A stretch of 33,477 nt of DNA from a virus (IMGVR_UViG_3300029193_000102:1-33477); one strand, 5' to 3'; shown: positions 1 to 19,014, counted from the first letter of the stretch. Notes: generated by a model not told the origin, from the sequence alone. Numbers and translations are program-made.

Positions 1-798
1 TTAATGAACATTCGTCGCCGAAAACGAGTCTGTATCATTAGCGTGATGCAGTCTCTGCAAAGGATCTTGTTGATAAAATTGGCAGAAACGTTGCCACAAT
101 GAAGGGAAACGAGGAGCAAAAAGTTCTGGGGCGCTAAAGAAATATTCAGAAAGTACGGCAAAACATTCAGCAGGATCACTGGCAGCATAAGCATCGATGC
201 TCGCCGCATTCTCGCCAACCAATTCGATTTCTTCCTGAATGTTGTTCATTGCAGCATGAAGATCGTGTTCCCAGCCAGCAACCTCACGCAACGGAATAAA
301 GGGAACTCCGCTGGCGCGATCGCCGTTACGGGTGTCCAGCTTATGAGCGACTTCATGAATAATCAGGTTAAAACCAGAAGCATCAAAAGAATCTTGTATA
401 TCCAACCAGTTCAAAACGATAGGCCCTTGCTGCCAGCTCTGACCTGACTGAACAATACGTTGGTTATGCACCAGACCGATATCGTCTTCCCATTCATCAT
501 CGACCACAAATGGCGCAGGATAAATTAAGACTTCATGAAAACCATCCAGCCATTCCAGTCCTAACTCCAGAACGGGCAGGCAAAATAGAAGTGCTATCCG
601 GCAGCTTCTTAATGAATTCAGCTCAAAGCCCTGTAAAGGAACAAGCCGTTTTTGCTGTAAAAAACGTTCGGCAAGAGTGACTAATTTGCTTTGTTCCTGT
701 TCCGTCAGACACGTTAAAAGGGGGATCGATAGTGCTTCCTGCCAGGGAAGGGCAGTTTGATGTGCTGATTCTTGTACTTTCCAGGGCCACTTAATCAT
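1..798 (-). CDS. mtfA: MtfA (Mlc titration factor A, YeeI-like); host chromosomal gene
   Basis: ORF track 1..837 (-); product begins [28 protein letters not shown] from the internal ATG at 796..798, which I recall as the MtfA N-terminus; sits next to serU as I recall for E. coli. Confidence 0.8.
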
Positions 799-891
799 CG
801 TTTTGCTCGCAAACTCGTCACTTGAACAAAATTGCACGGACAGGGACTGTTAAAATGCCAAATTTCCTGGCATCATGGCAACCATCTGAAC

Positions 892-981
892 GGAGAGATG
901 CCGGAGCGGCTGAACGGACCGGTCTCGAAAACCGGAGTGGGGGCAACTCCACCGGGGGTTCAAATCCCCCTCTCTCCGCCA
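892..981 (+). tRNA. serU: tRNA-Ser, anticodon CGA; prophage integration target
   Basis: 90-nt sequence GGAGAGATGCCGGAGCGGCTGAACGGACCGGTCTCGAAAACC...GGTTCAAATCCCCCTCTCTCCGCCA with long variable arm, T-loop GGTTCAAATCC and 3' CCA; anticodon loop CTCGAAA. Confidence 0.9.
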
Positions 982-1026
982 AAATTCAATCACTTACACA
1001 TCATTAAGTCAGTGACAAAAATCACA

Positions 1027-1063
1027 CTTGGAATTACTTGGAATATTTTCTTGGAATATTTTC
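1027..1063. repeat. Three direct copies of CTTGGAAT(T/A) (tandem TTGGAATATTTTC x2 plus one partial) between tRNA 3' end and int stop; candidate integrase arm-type sites of attL
   Basis: Copies begin at 1027, 1037 and 1050; overlap the int stop codon (1034..1036) and lie 46 nt after the tRNA. Confidence 0.4.
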
Positions 1064-2059
1064 AGGTAACGGGACATCAAGTGTCGGTGAAACTTTAACC
1101 TTCCTGTCATAGATTAGCACTTGCCCCTCGGTTTTGTGACCAGAGAAAAGTTGCTTATCCCGACTGCTTCCTTCATAGTCTGAAATTCCTTTCGCCTTCA
1201 GATCATGAAAGGTGAAGTCGGTTAAAATACCTGAAATTTTGCCTGCGCGATTTCTTGCTTCTACCCACATTTCGTTAAAGCCTTTGTACATATATCGGTT
1301 GCCGTATTGATTGCTGATTACATAGGCGGATGTTGGTAACTGTTTTGCTTTTTCGATCGCCGCCTGTAATCGTGGACTCCATGCTTTTATCTGTTTTTTT
1401 CCTGTTTTCCCTTGCTGGATAAAGATCCCGTCGTTTCCAATCTGCTCCCATTTCAGCGATAACACATCGGAAACCCTTGCTGCACACAGATAGGCAATTT
1501 CCATTGCGATAAAAACAGGAAGAGGTGCAACGCTTAATACTGCCTGGTATTCTTTGTCGGTTACATATCGTTCGCGGTTTTTGGCCTTGAATTTACTTAC
1601 ACCTGCACATGGGTTAGCCTTCACGTACCCTCGCTCATACCCCCAACTGTAAACACGGGACATACTGCTTTTTTCATGGTTGGCTTGCGTTTTACTCTGC
1701 TCCCCTCTTTTGTCCATGTATCGACGGATGTGTTCTGGTTTTATGGAATCCGCTGGTACCTTACCGAATACGGCAAGCAACTTTTTTTGATGTTGCAGAT
1801 AATCTTTTTGTGTTCTTGGACTAAGGTCACTGTAATAGGCGCTGGCGAGGAATTTTTCCCACAAGCGACCGAATGTCATTGCACGATCGCGATTATTTAC
1901 AGTTTCCTCATACTTTTTCCATAAAGCAGCTAAACCATCCTTGATGGCGGTTAGTGTGACAGATTCTCTGGATGTTGGTTTCCATACATAACTATATTTA
2001 TTTGGGTATACATTTGGAGGTAATTTTTCGTGTTCAGGATTTTTCCTTCGTCTTCCCAT
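1034..2059 (-). CDS. int: Tyrosine integrase, lambda Int family
   Basis: 341 aa; N-terminus MGRRRKNPEHEKLPPNVY resembles the lambda Int arm-binding domain (MGRRRSHERRDLPPNLY); C-terminal HDLKAKG...GH...LIYDRK catalytic-type motifs; adjacent to tRNA. Confidence 0.9.
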   Translation of the reverse strand: MGRRRKNPEHEKLPPNVYPNKYSYVWKPTSRESVTLTAIKDGLAALWKKYEETVNNRDRAMTFGRLWEKFLASAYYSDLSPRTQKDYLQHQKKLLAVFGKVPADSIKPEHIRRYMDKRGEQSKTQANHEKSSMSRVYSWGYERGYVKANPCAGVSKFKAKNRERYVTDKEYQAVLSVAPLPVFIAMEIAYLCAARVSDVLSLKWEQIGNDGIFIQQGKTGKKQIKAWSPRLQAAIEKAKQLPTSAYVISNQYGNRYMYKGFNEMWVEARNRAGKISGILTDFTFHDLKAKGISDYEGSSRDKQLFSGHKTEGQVLIYDRKVKVSPTLDVPLPENIPRKYSK

Positions 2060-2262
2060 CAGATCGCACCAAAATTCGGCTCTACCTCGCGTGGTGGTAA
2101 AGTTTTATTGCAGGTAAATAGATCCCGGCTGACAATCGGTTTGCCACTACGATTGGTATAGAACGGAAGCCCGTTTTCCATTAACCATTTTCGCTGGTGG
2201 CTTGCATATTTGCAGCCCGTTAATATTAGCAATTCATCTTCGGTTAAAAATAAGCTGCTCAT
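2059..2262 (-). CDS. Excisionase-like small protein (DUF4224-type)
   Basis: 67 aa, stop overlaps int start (ATGA); position immediately upstream of int; MSSLFLTEDELLILTGCKYASHQRKWLMENGLPFY resembles DUF4224 excisionase-like proteins. Confidence 0.6.
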   Translation of the reverse strand: MSSLFLTEDELLILTGCKYASHQRKWLMENGLPFYTNRSGKPIVSRDLFTCNKTLPPREVEPNFGAI

Positions 2263-2320: not shown

Positions 2321-4762
2321 TTAAAAATCAGCCTGACTCGGGATCAGTTTTTGCCAGATAGCTGAAACGTATTTTGCCTGGTAACGAGCGTCATCAAGTG
2401 CATTATGGCGCTCACCTTCGAATGGAATAGCCGTTCTGGCATCGAAGTCTATGGCTTTCCCCAGCTCAACGATTGTGCGTACATCGCGATCGTTGTAGTA
2501 ACGCCACGGGCAGGGGATCCCCTGCCGTTCGTATGAACGGCGCAAAATCGTGTTGTCGAAGTTGGCTCCATTTCCCCAGACCTGAACAAAAAATTCACCG
2601 GAGTTTTCGTCGATAAATTCCCGCAATTGTAACAGTGCATCATCTAACGGGATTTCATCGGTCATAATGGCAGATTGCGCTTCGCGTGATTGCTTAAGCC
2701 ACCATTTAATGGTGTCCCGATCAATGACTCCGCCAGCAGTTTCCAGATCGATAGTCTTACTAAATTCCGGTCCCATATCTCCGGTTTGCGGATCGAAAAA
2801 TATTGCACCTATTGAGATGATCGGGGCATCAGGATTTTTTCCCATGGTTTCAAGGTCGATCATTAGATGGTCACACGTCCTGCTGGTGGATGTGATTTCG
2901 TGATGACCGTTCACCTTAATTGAGTGATCTGCCGTCTCGCCAGTTTTATTATCGCTGGCGTGATGCTGATTGCCGCCAGGGTTCTCCTTGTGTGGATGTT
3001 CAGCGCCTTCCATTTCCTCCGGATCATTTTCCTGAACTTCAACCTGATTCTCTTCATCGAATGTTTCCTGGTATGTTGCGTCGCCCATCACCGCGCCACA
3101 ATCAGGGCAGTTGCCGCCACCGCTCTGACCGCAGGCGGTGCAGACTTTTTCCGGTTCCTGTTGCGCTACTGGTTCGGATTGTTTCGTTTCTGGCTCGTTT
3201 TGTAACGCATTTGGGCTGTTTTGTTCCGCTTTTTGGTCGTTCCGTTCCGATTCATGCTGGTTCTGGTTCACAGAATCGCGAGTCTGGATCCCCTTGACCC
3301 ATTTCGGATCATTAGGGTCGCTAATCCCCTCAACAAATTCACCACGCGATACAGCAAGTAACTTATCGGCGTCAGGCTGGCTGATATTGGCTGCCTGCAT
3401 AATTTTGTTTACTTCGTCAGCGGTGACTTTTACTTGGTTAGCGGAACTCACCTGCGACTGAGCATCCAGCGACTGCGCGTTTTGGCCATGTTCAGTTGTA
3501 TCCGGTTCCATTGTTTCAGTTGTTGCCTGTTCACCTGCCATTGCGTCAGATGGTTGTGGTTTTTCTTCTTCTGTTTCACGCTCAGTAACCACCTCGCGGT
3601 TAATTTCTTCCAGGATATCTTTTTCCGGCGTATGCCGGGCAGCTGTGAGAGTTTCCTTGCTGGGGTTCTCGTGATCAGTTTCCGTCAAATAGGCGTTGAT
3701 ATACCCCTGAAGGCGTCCCGGGTAGTGATAAAATTCAGGGTGTGCGCTTCGGATAAGTGCAAAAATAGCGGCGCGGGAATAGTCCAGAATACCCGGGGTT
3801 GCACGAAGTGCTGCGGACCATTCTTTGAACGGACTTTCTTTGTTCAGGACTACTTCTTTTGCGCGACGATAAACGCTGCCCGGAATTTCATAAATATTAA
3901 AATCCATCGGAAGTGTGGATGCTGCAATCTCCACATCCAGTGTGTCGAGGGTGTGTACTAAATTCGGATTGCGATCGGTTTTGTTCCCACCGCCAGCATT
4001 AGCACCGAAAGCCGTGCGGGTGATGCGTGAAACACGATTTCCTTTCATCCACTCTTTTGTCAGCAGACCCCGATCAGTGTAGTCAGCGTCCAGGTATGCT
4101 TCGAAAAAAGCAGTTATTAGTCCCAGGTCTGAATTACCAGGATTAGGGAAAACTTTGTCAGTGTCACGAACCAGTTTGTGGAGGTCGCGAATCTCCAGCG
4201 AGTCGAGCAGACTGGTTTTATGCGAAATAGCCAGGGCAGTAACAGCCGGTAGTTCTTCAGCCCGTGCAATGTGTAATGCCTGGAGTTCGTCGCGTGAAAC
4301 GTGCGTTACTGGTTTTTCGCTGCCGTGTTGAGCAAGCCAACGAATGGGCAGTTCCTGACCGGAGACAGGCAGAAGCATGCTCTCCTCAATCTCAGTCATG
4401 TCTTCGCCGTTGATGTTGGTATTGTCAGTGCTGGCTGGTTTGTCCCGAACAGAGGGGGAAGGGCCGATAAATGTCATTGTGATGCCATCTTTCCCGCCTT
4501 TTTCATAGCGGTTGCAGAATTCAGTATCAAACACGCCTTCTGGCGGAAGGTCGTCAACAACGGGCAAATTGACGCGGACGGGTTTTTTAAAGTCGTCTTC
4601 ATCATAATCGTTGTCATCCATTGCGGTAATGCAGCGGGAGATTGCAACAGATAATTTTTTTGCTGTAGTCCAGTAAAAACCACCTTTAATTCCTAGGCGT
4701 TTTCTTACTTTGTCATTTTTTGCTTCGCAATATAGTGCAAATTCTTCTTTATCAGTGCTCAT
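2321..4762 (-). CDS. Large exonuclease-like protein: C-terminal DEDDh-type 3'-5' exonuclease domain, central Cys4 zinc ribbon, acidic linker, uncharacterised N-terminal half (possibly the intact form of Qin YdfE)
   Basis: 813 aa; C-terminal motifs [10 protein letters not shown] (Exo I-like) and [13 protein letters not shown] (Exo III H-x4-D-like); [16 protein letters not shown] zinc ribbon; Qin-like gene order int - ydfE - ydfD - dicB. Confidence 0.7.
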
Positions 4763-5401: not shown

Positions 5402-5459
5402 AAAAAGGGCGGCAGAGCAGTCACGGAGTAAAACTGATACCGCCAAACGTCACCAGAAA
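5402..5459 (-). ncRNA. dicF: DicF small RNA (53 nt at 5407..5459) with 3' stem-loop and U-tract
   Basis: Minus-strand sequence TTTCTGGTGACGTTTGGCGGTATCAGTTTTACTCCGTGACTGCTCTGCCGCCC followed by TTTTT matches recalled DicF; lies upstream of dicB as in the Qin dicB operon. Confidence 0.7.
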
Positions 5460-13206: not shown

Positions 13207-13465
13207 ATACAGCGAACGCCATTGGTTTAGTTGGATATTTACTGTGCCGGACAAAAACGGTTTGCGGGGAAATCTTAGTTAAGTAGAATAACTGCGGGTG
13301 CTTGAGGCTATCTGTCTCAGGCATGAACACCAAAAGGCAGATAGAGAAAAGCCCCAGTTAACATTACGCGTCCGGCAAGACGCTTAACATTAATCTGAGG
13401 CTCAATCTATGAACGGCAAATCTAGGTTAGCCTCTTACGTGCCGAAAGGCAAGGAGAAGCAGGCT

Positions 13466-13621
13466 ATGAAGCAGCAAAAGGCGATGTTAGTCGCCCTGAT
13501 CGTCATCTGTATTACCGTCATTGTGACGGCACTGGTAACGAGGAAAGACCTCTGCGAGGTACGAATCCGAACCGGCCAGACGGAGGTCACTGTCTTCACA
13601 GCTTACGAACCTGAGGAGTAA
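13466..13621 (+). CDS. hok: Hok/Gef-family type I toxin (HokD/RelF-like)
   Basis: 51 aa MKQQKAMLVALIVICITVIVTALVTRKDLCEVRIRTGQTEVTVFTAYEPEE, near-identical to recalled HokD; AAGGAGAAG SD 7 nt upstream. Confidence 0.8.
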   Translation: MKQQKAMLVALIVICITVIVTALVTRKDLCEVRIRTGQTEVTVFTAYEPEE

Positions 13622-16486: not shown

Positions 16487-16804
16487 GTGGTAAATTGGCG
16501 GCTGGTGGGTGTGGTGGTTGTTGCTTTCCCGTTGCTGAAAAAGAAAACGCCAGACTGTTAGCCGGGTATCAGTTATCTGGAGAAATTTTTAAATACCTCA
16601 CAATTCAGGCGGTTGACTGTTGTCTGGTTTGCGGGGAGTTTGTTAAAAGAAACTGGCATGGTGAATCCCCCTGTGCGGAGGGGCAATCAGCAACTGGTGT
16701 TTTGTCACCGACCCTTATCCTTTCTGTGCGGGTTCAGGTGCTGATACTGAACTCACCGGGAGGCACCCGGCATCATGTGCATGATGATACAGATACGCGG
16801 CTTT

Positions 16805-16830
16805 AGCCCCTCTCCGGAGGGGCTTTCTTG
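16805..16830 (+). terminator. Rho-independent terminator (plus strand)
   Basis: AGCCCCTC-TCCG-GAGGGGCT followed by TTCTTG. Confidence 0.45.
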
Positions 16831-16835
16831 TGGGC

Positions 16836-16861
16836 AAAAAAAAGCCCGAGTGGGTTCGGGC
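16836..16861 (-). terminator. Rho-independent terminator (minus strand), convergent with the previous one
   Basis: A8 run then GCCCGA-GTGGGT-TCGGGC on the plus strand, i.e. hairpin plus U-tract on the minus strand. Confidence 0.4.
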
Positions 16862-17043
16862 AACAGCATGAGATATACATTTTTATAATCGAATGGATTT
16901 TAACCAGAATTCATAAGGCTGCGCAACTGCGCGGTCTTTTTCGAATTGCGGGCTGTCGTCTCTCTTCTGCCATTGTCCTGTAACTTCCGGACTTCAGCCT
17001 GCTCCTTATCTGACTCACAATATTATCCCGGCCGGGAGGATTC

Positions 17044-19014
17044 ATGGCATTTAAACACTACGATGTGGTCAGGGCGGCATCGCCGTCAGACCTTGCGGAT
17101 GCGCTTGCTCAAAAAATTCGTGAAGGATGGCAACCATACGGCGGGCCGTTTTCTTCGTACACGGATGATGGCGCAGCACTTATTCAGGCGATTGTCGCAG
17201 AAGGTAATGTCACCACACCTGTGGTGGTGAAGCCGTCGGATGGAGAAGGCGCAGTTATCAGCACCACCAGCAACCCGGAGTATTACTTTGTTGTTGCCCT
17301 GGCCGGGCAGTCAAACGGTATGGCGTATGGTGAAGGGCTTCCGCTGCCGGAGACATATGACCGTCCGGACCCGCGTATTAAACAGCTGGCGCGTCGCAGC
17401 ACTGTCACGCCGGGTGGTGCGTCCTGTAACTACAATGACATTATTCCTGCGGACCACTGCCTGCATGATGTTCAGGATTTGAGTAAGTTTTCACACCCGA
17501 AAGCCAGCGCAGCTCAGTATGGATGCGTGGGGCAGGGATTACATATCGCGAAGAAATTGTTGCCGTTTATTCCGGCGAATGCCGGTATTCTTCTGGTTCC
17601 GTGCTGCCGTGGGGGTTCTGCATTTTTGGCGGGCGATGAAGGTACCTTCAGCGAATCCACCGGCGCAAGCGAGACCTCGGCACGCTGGGGTGTAGATAAG
17701 CCACTGTACAAGGACCTGCTTACCCGTACTCAGGCCGCACTGAAGGCCAACCCTAAAAATATTCTGCTTGCAGTGGTCTGGATGCAGGGCGAGTTTGATT
17801 TGAAACAGGGTGCATACGCCACTCAGCCGGGGCTGTTTGATTCCATGGTGGAAAAATATCGTTCTGACCTGTCGGAATTCGGAGGTCAGTGTCTCGGGGG
17901 CTCTCCGTCATCAGTTCCCTGGATTTGTGGCGACACGACCTACTACTGGAAGCAGACTTATTCTTCGCAATACGATGCGGTGTATGGTGCATACAAGACG
18001 AAATCCGCAAAAAAAATCTTCTTTGTGCCGTTTATGACGGATGAAAACGGGCGAAATGTGGGTACCAACGAGCCGTCAGAAGATCCGGATGTTGCGGATA
18101 TTGGGTATTACGGAGCCGGTGGTCGAACGGACGCCAAAACCTGGACGACGGCTGACCGTAAAACGCATTTTGGATCATGGGCACGTCGTGGGATTATTTC
18201 CGACCGTCTGGCAACGGCGATTCTTGTGCATGCCGGGAGAACCGCTGAATTCATTACCGGAAAACAGCCTGATACGGTGAAGCCCACCGGACCTTCCGGT
18301 GAAGGTACGGAGAGAGAGCCGGAAGGTCCGGTCAGTAACCGAACCCTGATGAGTCTGCTGGCGTCCGGCGAAGACCTGGCATCACAGGGCTGGCGCTATT
18401 ATCACAAACCGGCGAGCGGAGACAATGTTAACAAAAACATTGCTGAAGCGGTGGTCAGTGATGCGGGGGCTACGGGAGGTAAGGCCCTGCAACTGAATAA
18501 ACCGGAAAACCACATCTGGTTTCTGGAGCATGATGCAGCCGGGCAGGGGGCAGAGTTGCTGAAGAAAGGAGGACGTGTGAGCGTACGGTTTAAGTTGCCG
18601 GGTTCACTGGTGCCGAATCAGTTTGCCCTGGGCATTTACTGGCAGTTGTCGTCCCTGCCGGAGGGAGTGACGCTGGCAGAGGAAGGCAACGACATGCTGA
18701 TGTCCTTCTTCCTGCAGACGGATGCGACGAACCTGAACGCGATGCACCACAAGAAGCCGAATGCGAAGCTGGAAACGTTCGGGGTCTTTGATAACGGATG
18801 GCACACACTGGCTTTTGAGTTTGCCGGAAACAACAGCATTCAGGTGACGCCGGTACTGGATGAGAAACGGGGGACGCCGTTCACACTGGTGAAATCTCCG
18901 GCATCAGGGGCGGTGGACAAACTGCAACTGACAGGCATATCAAAGGCGGCGACATATACGCTGCTGATTGACAGTGTGAAGGTGGAAGTGAACAACGCGG
19001 ACATCGCGGCATGA
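17044..19014 (+). CDS. nanS: Prophage sialate O-acetylesterase (NanS-p type; DUF1737 N-terminus plus SGNH/SASA esterase domain)
   Basis: 656 aa; GGAGG SD; N-terminus MAFKHYDVVRAASPSDLADALAQKIREGWQPYGG; esterase motif ALAGQSNG; position between Q and lysis genes as in Stx phages. Confidence 0.8.
   Translation: MAFKHYDVVRAASPSDLADALAQKIREGWQPYGGPFSSYTDDGAALIQAIVAEGNVTTPVVVKPSDGEGAVISTTSNPEYYFVVALAGQSNGMAYGEGLPLPETYDRPDPRIKQLARRSTVTPGGASCNYNDIIPADHCLHDVQDLSKFSHPKASAAQYGCVGQGLHIAKKLLPFIPANAGILLVPCCRGGSAFLAGDEGTFSESTGASETSARWGVDKPLYKDLLTRTQAALKANPKNILLAVVWMQGEFDLKQGAYATQPGLFDSMVEKYRSDLSEFGGQCLGGSPSSVPWICGDTTYYWKQTYSSQYDAVYGAYKTKSAKKIFFVPFMTDENGRNVGTNEPSEDPDVADIGYYGAGGRTDAKTWTTADRKTHFGSWARRGIISDRLATAILVHAGRTAEFITGKQPDTVKPTGPSGEGTEREPEGPVSNRTLMSLLASGEDLASQGWRYYHKPASGDNVNKNIAEAVVSDAGATGGKALQLNKPENHIWFLEHDAAGQGAELLKKGGRVSVRFKLPGSLVPNQFALGIYWQLSSLPEGVTLAEEGNDMLMSFFLQTDATNLNAMHHKKPNAKLETFGVFDNGWHTLAFEFAGNNSIQVTPVLDEKRGTPFTLVKSPASGAVDKLQLTGISKAATYTLLIDSVKVEVNNADIAA

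What the first reader, a model, noticed from the sequence alone, without database searches (positions are those of the whole stretch)
892..1063. Prophage left junction at the serU 3' end with candidate arm-type integrase sites
The integrase gene ends 53 bp after the tRNA CCA end, and the interval contains three direct CTTGGAAT(T/A) repeats that overlap the int stop codon. The attachment core is expected to coincide with the tRNA 3' portion, which the phage would regenerate on integration. The right junction is outside the window.
Basis: partly seen in the sequence, partly recalled or inferred. Interest (0 to 1): 0.4.

Follow-up and report, generated by a model that had tools for sequence, protein, structure and literature searches.

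The report
Prophage integrase arm sites beside serU
This is the left end (attL) of a lambda-like prophage inserted in the E. coli/Shigella serU tRNA gene, and the three short repeats next to the integrase gene are very probably the sites where the integrase's N-terminal domain binds; it is an ordinary, well-understood kind of feature.

Summary
serU tRNA-Ser(CGA) lies at 892-981. The integrase ORF (1034-2059, minus strand) stops 53 bp after the CCA end. CTTGGAAT occurs at 1027, 1037 and 1050, and only once more in the 33 kb window.

- **Junction.** Empty serU loci and the attR of three related lysogens show a 62-bp repeat, window 920/921-981, running from the anticodon stem to CCA.
- **Crossover.** Two phage-derived compensatory substitutions (G943, C954) place the crossover at 921-942, the anticodon stem-loop, not at the tRNA 3' end.
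- **P arm.** In relatives, the far-end arm carries the same 8-mer once direct (-119) and once inverted (-54). These are conserved islands in an otherwise 44%-identical arm.
- **Family pattern.** Phages ST64B and KpF5 keep sites at the same positions with spacing 10 and 13, and ZF40 keeps the P-arm positions; 26 of 48 related loci keep spacing 10 or 11, then 13. The motif sequence differs, and it tracks the integrase N-terminal domain, not Xis.
- **Integrase.** It models as a full three-domain lambda Int.

Prophage integration at serU is already published; the arm sites seem undescribed. This is a new member of a known kind, of low to moderate interest.

The parts
1..837 (-). mtfA, the bacterial flank on the left. 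It is not part of the element.
   Evidence: ORF listed. Annotated as mtfA in every matching E. coli record.
892..981 (+). serU tRNA-Ser(CGA). Here it is a hybrid: host 5' part and phage-supplied 3' part.
   Evidence: ARAGORN and Rfam tRNA at 57 bits. G943/C954 are present only in occupied sites.
921..981 (.). The att identity block: the sequence repeated at both prophage ends, running from the anticodon stem to CCA. The block starts at 920 in EC931 and HS13-1 and at 921 in O157.
   Evidence: attL/attB/attR alignment, O157 attR and exact 25-mer matches at both prophage ends.
919..935 (.). Anticodon stem-loop: stem 919-923 and 931-935, loop 924-930. Predicted to hold the inverted core-type Int sites flanking a 7-bp overlap. 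The crossover is bounded to 921-942.
   Evidence: The left limit comes from the start of attR identity. The right limit comes from phage-derived G943. Placement in the loop is inferred by analogy and from the same left boundary in ST64B, KpF5 and ZF40 attP.
943..954 (+). The end bases of this span, G943 and C954, are two phage-derived compensatory substitutions that form a G:C pair in the tRNA variable-arm stem. The host has A:T at these positions.
   Evidence: attL of the window and of EC931 carries G/C. attB and both attR copies carry A/T.
986..996 (+). TCAATCACTTA, an IHF-core-like element (TCAANNNNTTR) just 3' of the tRNA. It is a candidate H' bend site.
   Evidence: Found at +59..+69 from the anticodon centre in the E. 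coli element, ST64B and KpF5 alike. It is a consensus match only.
1027..1034 (+). P'1, the first candidate arm-type Int site (CTTGGAAT), at +100 from the anticodon centre. It overlaps the int stop codon.
1037..1044 (+). P'2, the second candidate arm-type site, at +110. It lies inside the last int codons.
1050..1057 (+). P'3, the third candidate arm-type site, at +123. It lies inside the last int codons.
   Evidence: Present in 1085 of 1152 genomes with this int. Absent in F2_81.
1037..1062 (+). Perfect 13-bp tandem (CTTGGAATATTTT twice). Loss of one unit removes a P' site and shifts the Int C-terminus from …PRKYSK* (341 aa) to …PSNSKCDFCH* (345 aa).
   Evidence: Sequence, alignment with F2_81 and translation.
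1034..2059 (-). int, a lambda-type tyrosine integrase of 341 aa with an N-terminal arm-binding domain, a core-binding domain and a catalytic domain.
   Evidence: Pfam PF00589, PF22022 and PF14659. Lambda Int 1Z1B by sequence, E 8e-13, aligned from residue 1. AF2 model at pLDDT 86, with Foldseek top hit 1Z1B_A over 335 columns.
2059..2262 (-). Candidate excisionase (xis), 67 aa, DUF4224, overlapping the int start.
   Evidence: Pfam PF13986, E 1.9e-15. Homologous small genes sit upstream of int across the family.

Best explanation
Window 892-1063 is the attL (B-O-P') junction of a lambdoid prophage integrated in serU.

**Integration (shown by comparison).** The phage attP carries a copy of the 3' 61-62 nt of a tRNA-Ser(CGA) gene, from the anticodon stem to CCA. 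Integration rebuilds the gene as a host/phage hybrid. It leaves a 62-bp direct repeat at the two prophage ends.

**Crossover (bounded, partly inferred).** Strand exchange took place within 921-942. It was most likely in the 7-nt anticodon loop (924-930), with the two halves of the anticodon stem acting as inverted core-type sites.

**The three repeats (inferred).** The CTTGGAAT copies at 1027, 1037 and 1050 are the P'1-P'2-P'3 arm-type sites. They would be bound by the N-terminal domain of the integrase encoded immediately alongside. Together with one direct (P1, -119) and one inverted (P2, -54) copy in the other arm, and IHF-induced bends, they would let the heterobivalent Int bridge arm and core DNA. 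The resulting intasome would resemble lambda's. The DUF4224 Xis would direct excision.

**Overlap with int.** In this lineage the int ORF runs through P'3 and P'2 and stops in P'1.
For: **Junction**
- Empty-site genomes diverge from the window just after the tRNA.
- attR copies of 920/921-981 are present in three related lysogens.
- Published reports agree. One describes a prophage at serU with a 77-nt duplication (PMC2608844). Sakai Sp14 also sits at serU (PMC8190617), and its circular attP form was detected after induction (PMC2669165).

**Crossover**
- G943/C954 occur in attL only.
- The identity block starts in the 5' half of the anticodon stem in the E. coli element, ST64B, KpF5 and ZF40.

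**Arm sites**
- The 8-mer has 3 of its 4 window copies here.
- Both exact copies in 5.5 kb around the EC931 attR lie in the P arm, at -119 (direct) and -54 (inverted).
- The O157 and EC931 P arms are 44% identical overall. The P1 window is 93% identical and the P2 window 92%.
- ST64B and KpF5 have TGAGAAAA at -117, -54 (inverted), +101, +111 and +124. ZF40 has TTCCTAAT at -117, -53 (inverted), +136 and +148.
- Of 48 related loci with a tRNA next to int, 30 show a triple direct repeat scoring at least 6 of 8, against 1 of 240 shuffles. About 26 of those 30 have spacing (11,13) or (10,13) out of 81 spacings tried, with at least eight different motifs.
- Identity in the first 58 Int residues ranks loosely with motif similarity. 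Xis identity does not.

**Reader protein**
- The best sequence match is full-length lambda Int, aligned from residue 1.
- hhalign of the family N-termini against lambda Int residues 1-25 gives E 5e-5.
- The AF2 model shows a three-stranded sheet plus helix at residues 17-58. Foldseek's top hit is full-length lambda Int over 335 columns.
- The ST64B homologue recombines attP with attB in vitro (PMC12455584).
Against: - No binding or recombination data exist for this element. Protein-DNA contacts are inferred.
- The window's own attR and P arm could not be read, because the source genome is not in the collections. The P arm comes from relatives whose prophages are mosaics.
- The exact cleavage positions are not resolved inside 921-942.
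- P'2 and P'3 are a perfect 13-bp tandem inside coding sequence. Recent slippage and coding constraint therefore contribute to their identity in this lineage.
- The IHF-like element at 986-996 matches only the core of the consensus.
- The family has Lys where lambda has the second catalytic Arg. The chemistry may therefore differ in detail.
- One report judged the Sp14 Xis probably non-functional and found only weak excision (PMC2669165).
Confidence: 0.85

Rival explanations
1. The repeats are binding sites for the excisionase (DUF4224 protein) or another phage-encoded accessory protein, not for the integrase N-domain.
For: - Recombination directionality factors also bind short direct repeats in att arms.
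- A Xis-like gene lies immediately upstream of int.
- No binding data exist.
Against: - Xis similarity does not follow the motif. Xis is 65% identical between CTTAGAAT and TTCCTAAT loci. It is 90% identical between TTCAGAA and TTCrCTATAT loci. It is only 25% identical between two TTAGAAT-type loci.
- The Int N-domain follows motif similarity more closely than Xis does.
- The motif sits in both arms in the lambda Int pattern: one direct and one inverted copy in P, and a direct tandem in P'.
Confidence: 0.06
2. The repeats are a non-functional by-product: replication-slippage duplications in the AT-rich 3' end of int, kept only because they encode the Int C-terminus.
For: - 1037-1062 is a perfect 13-bp tandem, and a 13-bp-shorter allele exists.
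- The repeats lie inside the ORF.
Against: - Relatives keep three sites at +100/+101 with the same 10-11/13 spacing although their int stops 20-60 bp further on. There the sites are non-coding.
- The motif recurs in the P arm, outside any int coding sequence, as conserved islands.
- The residues encoded by the repeats are not conserved in the family.
Confidence: 0.03
3. The sites act mainly in regulating int, not (or not only) in building the intasome. Int bound at its own 3' end, or read-through from serU, would modulate int expression.
For: - The sites overlap the int stop codon.
- No intrinsic terminator was detected between serU and int, so serU read-through would be antisense to int.
- Integrase autoregulation through att-arm sites is described for KplE1 (title and abstract of PMC2951348, listed).
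Against: - The sites are at the 3' end of int, not at its promoter.
- In most relatives the sites do not overlap int at all.
- The terminator scan is a crude consensus test, and the empty locus also lacks a hit.
Confidence: 0.05

Closest known systems
Bacteriophage lambda attP/Int system (P1, P2, P'1-P'3 arm-type sites; IHF sites H1, H2, H'; heterobivalent Int)
   Same: - Int has three domains, with an N-terminal sheet-plus-helix domain that begins MGRRR…LPPN(L/V)Y.
- int lies next to the P' arm, so attL carries the three direct tandem sites.
- The five-site layout is one direct and one inverted site in P and three direct sites in P'. The lambda layout is from my own knowledge.
- IHF-consensus elements sit between the arm sites and the core.
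   Different: - The core lies in a tRNA anticodon stem-loop, not in the gal-bio intergenic attB.
- The P' sites are about 100 bp from the crossover, because 54 bp of tRNA intervene.
- The arm motif is CTTGGAAT, unrelated to lambda's.
- Int is only about 21% identical to lambda Int and has Lys at the second catalytic Arg position.
- Xis is a DUF4224 protein.
- int overlaps its own arm sites.
Salmonella phage ST64B IntA/attP, with Klebsiella phage KpF5
   Same: - Int is 59% identical.
- attP contains a tRNA-Ser(CGA) 3' segment starting CGGTCTCGAAAACCG.
- Sites lie within 2 bp of the same positions, with spacing 10 and 13.
- The TCAAnCACTTA element is shared.
- ST64B IntA is shown to recombine attP x attB in vitro (PMC12455584).
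   Different: - The arm motif is TGAGAAAA.
- The Int N-domain is only 37% identical, against 63-65% for the rest of the protein.
- int stops about 40 bp beyond P'3, so there is no overlap.
- The tRNA segment carried by the phage differs in the variable and T arms.
E. coli O157:H7 prophage Sp14 / CP-933U and SE11 PP_SE11-6 (published serU prophages)
   Same: - The integration site is the same. O157:H7 strains carry a near-identical int 3' end with the identical 57-bp three-repeat stretch.
- A 77-nt duplication is reported at serU in SE11 (PMC2608844), which matches the 920-996 similarity seen here.
- The circular form of Sp14 was detected after induction (PMC2669165).
   Different: - The rest of the prophage is mosaic. 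The window matches no complete genome over more than 93% of positions 9000-33477, at 98% identity.
- The O157 version has a diverged P arm and carries tccP and espJ at its right end.
- Arm-type sites were not described in the papers I could search.
tRNA anticodon-loop integration class of tyrosine integrases (sublocation classes of Williams 2002; cited from my own knowledge)
   Same: - The identity block begins in the 5' half of the anticodon stem and runs to the tRNA 3' end.
- The symmetrical stem flanks a 7-nt loop.
- The phage restores the gene.
   Different: The exact cleavage sites are not determined here, only bounded to 921-942.

Membership tests
Lambda-type (heterobivalent) tyrosine integrase with an arm-type/core-type attP | C-terminal tyrosine-recombinase catalytic domain with nucleophile Tyr and the conserved catalytic residues | tested here: met
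   PF00589 at E 3e-11. Aligned to lambda Int: R195, H285, H308 and Y317 are present. The second Arg is replaced by K288 (HDLK against HELR), invariant in 57 family members. The family is active: ST64B IntA in vitro (PMC12455584) and Sp14 circles (PMC2669165).
Lambda-type (heterobivalent) tyrosine integrase with an arm-type/core-type attP | Separate N-terminal arm-DNA-binding domain (three-stranded sheet plus helix) ahead of the core-binding domain | tested here: met
   The AF2 model has strands at 17-19, 23-26 and 34-38 and a helix at 39-58, with pLDDT 88-91. Foldseek's best hit is full-length lambda Int 1Z1B_A over 335 columns, E 7.5e-16. hhalign to lambda residues 1-25 gives E 5e-5. No Pfam model hits residues 1-60.
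Lambda-type (heterobivalent) tyrosine integrase with an arm-type/core-type attP | A repeated motif, different from the core sequence, present in both att arms | tested here: met
   The P' arm has copies at 1027, 1037 and 1050. The P arm of relatives has a direct copy at -119 and an inverted copy at -54. Both are conserved islands in a 44%-identical arm.
Lambda-type (heterobivalent) tyrosine integrase with an arm-type/core-type attP | The Int N-domain physically binds the arm-type sites | not testable with these tools
   Only indirect evidence exists. The motif changes together with the N-domain across about 30 loci and not with Xis.
Lambda-type (heterobivalent) tyrosine integrase with an arm-type/core-type attP | Host bending-protein (IHF) sites between the arm sites and the core | tested here: inconclusive
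   Full WATCAANNNNTTR matches at -92..-80 and -37..-25 in the EC931 P arm. A core-only match lies at +59..+69, window 986-996. These are partly conserved in the O157 arm, at 62-69%. They are consensus matches only.
Integrated prophage junction (attL) | Direct repeat of the core at the opposite prophage end, and an empty-site allele lacking the element | tested here: met
   Empty sites occur in most E. coli genomes. attR repeats are present in EC931, HS13-1 and O157:H7 strain 2149. This was not testable for the window's own genome.
tRNA anticodon-loop integration class | Crossover within the 7-nt anticodon loop, flanked by the stem halves as core-type sites | tested here: inconclusive
   The crossover is bounded to 921-942 by the start of attR identity and by phage-specific G943. 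The loop is 924-930. The cleavage points themselves are not resolvable from sequence.

The most novel reading that the evidence does not exclude
The perfect 13-bp tandem (1037-1062) could act as a slippage-prone switch. One step would remove or restore a P' arm site and, at the same time, swap the integrase C-terminal tail (341-aa …PRKYSK against 345-aa …PSNSKCDFCH). That would toggle the prophage between mobile and locked-in states.

More broadly, this integrase family offers a natural 'recognition code' series. At least eight arm motifs sit in a fixed geometry, each paired with a distinct N-domain.
Probability: 0.1. Interest if true: 0.5.

Novelty: new member of a known kind. Interest (0 to 1): 0.25.

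Why it matters
- It gives a concrete, testable map of the attachment site for a very common E. coli/Shigella prophage family. The family is present at serU in about a fifth of complete E. coli genomes and includes O157 Sp14/CP-933U, which carries the tccP and espJ effector genes.
- The map covers the crossover region, five candidate arm sites and candidate IHF sites.
- It explains why RefSeq flags this integrase as 'frameshifted' in at least the two genomes I read (HS13-1 and EC931): the reference reading frame comes from a rare 13-bp-shorter allele.
- Motif and N-domain change together at fixed geometry across the family. That could be used to design or retarget arm-dependent integrases.
- None of this changes the current understanding of site-specific recombination.

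Tried and rejected
- **Source genome.** I looked for it so as to read its own attR. The best complete E. coli genome (EC931) covers 93% of window 9000-33477 at 98.3% identity, so attR had to come from relatives.
- **Free phage with this int.** I searched the phage collection at DNA level. The two hits are predicted-prophage cut-outs that still carry mtfA and serU, so they are not real attP.
- **IMG/VR scan with the Int alignment.** It returned 80 near-identical E. coli prophage fragments and added no diversity. The one-genome-per-species scan was the useful one.
- **Homology running to 996.** The megablast result first suggested that the core extends 15 bp past the tRNA. The multiple alignment shows this is weak, gapped similarity of the 3' flanks, and that the exact repeat ends at CCA.
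- **Third repeat as a frameshifting duplication.** I first read the third repeat as a recent duplication that damages int, because PGAP labels int 'frameshifted' in HS13-1 and EC931. I rejected this. The three-copy form is present in 1085 of 1152 genomes. The exact 341-aa protein is on at least 1000 contigs, against 2 for the 345-aa form. The 10/13 spacing is the family norm.
- **Pfam on the N-domain.** Pfam gave no hit on Int residues 1-60. The domain assignment rests on the lambda Int alignment and the structure model.
- **Terminator scan.** It found nothing convincing downstream of serU in either the occupied or the empty locus. The antisense read-through idea therefore stays speculative.
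- **Literature.** Searches for arm-type sites in ST64B or serU phages found none.

Full report
**1. The observation**

The window holds one tRNA gene, tRNA-Ser(CGA), at 892-981 on the + strand (Rfam tRNA). Upstream lies mtfA (1-837, - strand), so the tRNA is serU.

A 341-aa ORF on the - strand spans 1034-2059. Its stop codon starts 53 bp after the CCA end.

CTTGGAAT occurs at 1027, 1037 and 1050, with spacing 10 and 13. There is only one other copy in 33.5 kb, against about 1.5 expected for the whole window. The first copy overlaps the stop codon. The other two lie in the last int codons.

Positions 1037-1049 and 1050-1062 are a perfect 13-bp tandem.

**2. It is a prophage-chromosome junction**

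A 701-bp probe across the site matched 5422 of 5426 complete E. coli genomes.
- In 1144 genomes the match runs through into int.
- In the others it stops at window 996 and the chromosome continues into yodB and zinT.

The window's own genome is not in the collection. The best relative, EC931, covers 93% of 9000-33477 at 98.3% identity.

EC931, HS13-1 and an O157:H7 strain carry prophages with this int at serU. In all three the far prophage end, next to yodB, has a second copy of the tRNA 3' segment. No such copy exists inside the window. In EC931 it lies about 11 kb beyond the point where the window ends.

Published work agrees:
- A prophage at serU with a 77-nt duplication was reported in strain SE11 (PMC2608844).
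- Sakai prophage Sp14 sits at serU (PMC8190617).
- serU is listed as a Stx-phage insertion site (PMC8065619).
- Sp14 circles were detected after mitomycin C (PMC2669165).

**3. Where the crossover is**

Aligning attL, attB and attR shows an exact repeat from window 920 to 981. In O157 it starts at 921. That is 61-62 nt, from the 5' half of the anticodon stem to CCA.

Inside this block the window and EC931 attL carry G943 and C954. Empty sites and both attR copies carry A and T. The two positions pair in the variable-arm stem, so the change is compensatory.

The 3' part of serU in a lysogen is therefore phage DNA. The exchange happened between 921 and 942.

The anticodon stem (919-923 and 931-935) flanks the 7-nt loop (924-930). 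This is the classic inverted-repeat-plus-overlap geometry of a core site.

The phage attP of ST64B, KpF5 and ZF40 also starts its tRNA homology in or 1 bp before the 5' stem half. I infer cleavage around the loop. The sequence cannot resolve it further.

The apparent extension of homology to 996 is weak, gapped similarity of the 3' flanks (TTCAATCACTTA in the phage against ATCAATGACTTA in the host). It probably explains the '77 nt' figure in the literature.

**4. The repeats as arm-type sites: a prediction tested on the other arm**

If CTTGGAAT is the arm-type motif, the P arm at the far end should carry it too.

In 5.5 kb around the EC931 attR there are exactly two perfect copies, and both lie in the P arm.
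- One is direct, at -119..-112 from the anticodon centre.
- One is inverted, at -54..-47.

The O157 P arm is only 44% identical to the EC931 arm. Yet the 14-bp window around P1 is 93% identical and the 12-bp window around P2 is 92% identical. Spacers are 43-53% identical.

Full IHF consensus matches lie at -92..-80 and -37..-25. An IHF-core match (TCAATCACTTA, window 986-996) lies at +59..+69.

The resulting map is P1 - H - P2(inverted) - H - core - H' - P'1 P'2 P'3. This is the lambda layout as I know it.

**5. Comparative test across the family**

tblastn found true phage relatives: ST64B and KpF5 (59% identical) and ZF40 (50%).

| Element | Arm motif | P1 | P2 (inverted) | P' sites |
|---|---|---|---|---|
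| E. coli serU prophage (P arm from EC931) | CTTGGAAT | -119 | -54 | +100, +110, +123 |
| ST64B, KpF5 | TGAGAAAA | -117 | -54 | +101, +111, +124 |
| ZF40 (uses tRNA-Leu(UAA)) | TTCCTAAT | -117 | -53 | +136, +148 |

A scan of one genome per species gave 80 loci with Int 45-100% identical. They lie next to tRNA-Ser(CGA or TGA), tRNA-Leu(TAA or CAA) or tRNA-Cys.

For the 48 loci with a tRNA beside int, I searched every pair of spacings from 8 to 16 for three direct 8-mers.
- 30 loci scored at least 6 of 8, against 1 of 240 shuffles.
- About 26 of those 30 had spacing (11,13) or (10,13).
- The first copy lay near +100 for all tRNA-Ser loci and mostly at +132-135 for tRNA-Leu(TAA).
- The motifs differ: CTTGGAAT, CTTAGAAT, TTGGTAT, TGAGAAAA, TTCAGAA, TTCCTAAT, TTCACTAT, TTCGCCAT.

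Fixed geometry with a changing sequence is what protein-specific sites look like. It excludes host-factor sites and chance.

In most relatives the sites are non-coding. Coding constraint therefore does not explain them.

**6. Who reads them**

The integrase's best sequence match in the PDB is full-length lambda Int, aligned from residue 1 (MGRRR…LPPNVY; E 8e-13). The family N-termini match lambda residues 1-25 by hhalign (E 5e-5).

An AlphaFold2 model built on 57 homologues (pLDDT 86) has three strands at 17-38 and a helix at 39-58. A core-binding domain and a catalytic domain follow. Foldseek's top hit is full-length lambda Int over 335 columns.

Between the E. coli and ST64B integrases, residues 1-58 are 37% identical and the rest 63-65%. 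ST64B and KpF5, which share a motif, are 86% identical in that domain.

Across 30 loci, N-domain identity to the E. coli protein roughly ranks with motif similarity.
- CTTAGAAT and TTGGTAT loci show 41-52% identity and share an NKYSY or similar (NHYSY, NGYSY) strand.
- Loci with unrelated motifs show 21-37%.
- The overlap is real: the TTrGAAT locus L104 scores 36%, below ST64B at 37%.

The upstream Xis-like protein does not track the motif.
- It is 65% identical between CTTAGAAT and TTCCTAAT loci.
- It is 90% identical between TTCAGAA and TTCrCTATAT loci.
- It is 25% identical between two TTAGAAT-type loci.

The Int N-domain is the best candidate reader. Binding itself remains inferred.

**7. 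The 13-bp tandem and the 'frameshift'**

RefSeq annotates this int as frameshifted in HS13-1 and EC931.

A 13-bp-shorter allele exists in F2_81 and probably in N17. It reads …PENIPSNSKCDFCH* (345 aa).

The three-copy form is the norm:
- 1085 of 1152 genomes with this int have it.
- The exact 341-aa protein is on at least 1000 contigs, against 2 for the 345-aa form.
- The 10/13 spacing matches the family pattern.

Both forms keep everything conserved in the family, through …SPTLD. The short allele is best read as a deletion that removes one P' site. In F2_81 it sits in a prophage remnant whose int is cut by an insertion element.

**8. Comparison with what is known, and verdict**

It works like lambda attP/Int. 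It meets the testable membership criteria: catalytic domain, arm-binding domain fold, a motif in both arms, and att repeats. Two caveats remain: the IHF sites and the cleavage positions are inconclusive, and no biochemistry exists.

It differs from lambda in four ways:
- It uses a tRNA anticodon-loop core, so the P' sites lie about 100 bp out.
- It has its own arm motif.
- It has a DUF4224 Xis.
- It has Lys in place of the second catalytic Arg.

Integration at serU and excision of Sp14 are published. The arm sites appear not to be, within the searchable library.

It is a new member of a known kind. Interest is low to moderate.

Noticed in passing
window 1196-1198 (Int codon K288; motif FHDLK): The integrase has Lys where lambda Int has its second catalytic Arg (HDLK against HELR). 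The Lys is invariant in 57 family members. The family is nonetheless active, according to the literature on ST64B IntA and Sp14.
   Followed up: partly
window 1009-1062; L001 48232-49282; L002 45975-47025: RefSeq (PGAP) labels this integrase 'frameshifted' in HS13-1 and EC931. The apparent cause is that the reference frame is the rare 345-aa, 13-bp-shorter allele. The 341-aa form is the common one (1085 of 1152 genomes; at least 1000 contigs).
   Followed up: yes
window 982-996 against L004 2883-2900: The phage DNA just 3' of its tRNA copy (TTCAATCACTTA) resembles the native serU 3' flank (ATCAATGACTTA, a full IHF consensus). This is either a trace of the attP's origin from a serU-like locus or a shared bend site. 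It probably explains the '77-nt duplication' in the literature.
   Followed up: partly
window 982-1400: A simple scan found no intrinsic terminator between serU and the converging int gene, apart from one weak hairpin at 1371-1383. serU read-through could therefore be antisense to int. The empty locus also lacks a detectable terminator.
   Followed up: partly
window 5407-5458 (-), 13296-13471 (+), 16627-16835 (+), 16839-16891 (-): Rfam hits inside the prophage: DicF, sok (with hok nearby), STnc100 and AsxR ('anti-stx2' sRNA). The last two sit just upstream of a 656-aa ORF (17044-19014). In EC931 the matching gene follows the Q antiterminator and is annotated DUF6645.
   Followed up: no
L171 12095-14086 (O157:H7 strain 2149): The O157 version of the serU prophage carries the type III effector genes tccP and espJ just inside attR. 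Its P arm is only 44% identical to that of EC931 and HS13-1. This shows heavy mosaicism behind a shared int-attL module.
   Followed up: partly
L091-L170 (one genome per species): Integrases of this family sit next to tRNA-Ser(CGA), tRNA-Ser(TGA), tRNA-Leu(TAA), tRNA-Leu(CAA) or tRNA-Cys(GCA). The target tRNA and the arm motif vary semi-independently. For example, TTAGAAT-type arms occur with Ser(TGA), Leu(CAA) and Cys targets.
   Followed up: partly
window 2321-4762 (-): The 813-aa Exo VIII / Rv2179c-like exonuclease fusion gene is intact in the window. Its counterpart in EC931 is annotated with an internal stop, and in one phage-collection record it is split in two.
   Followed up: no
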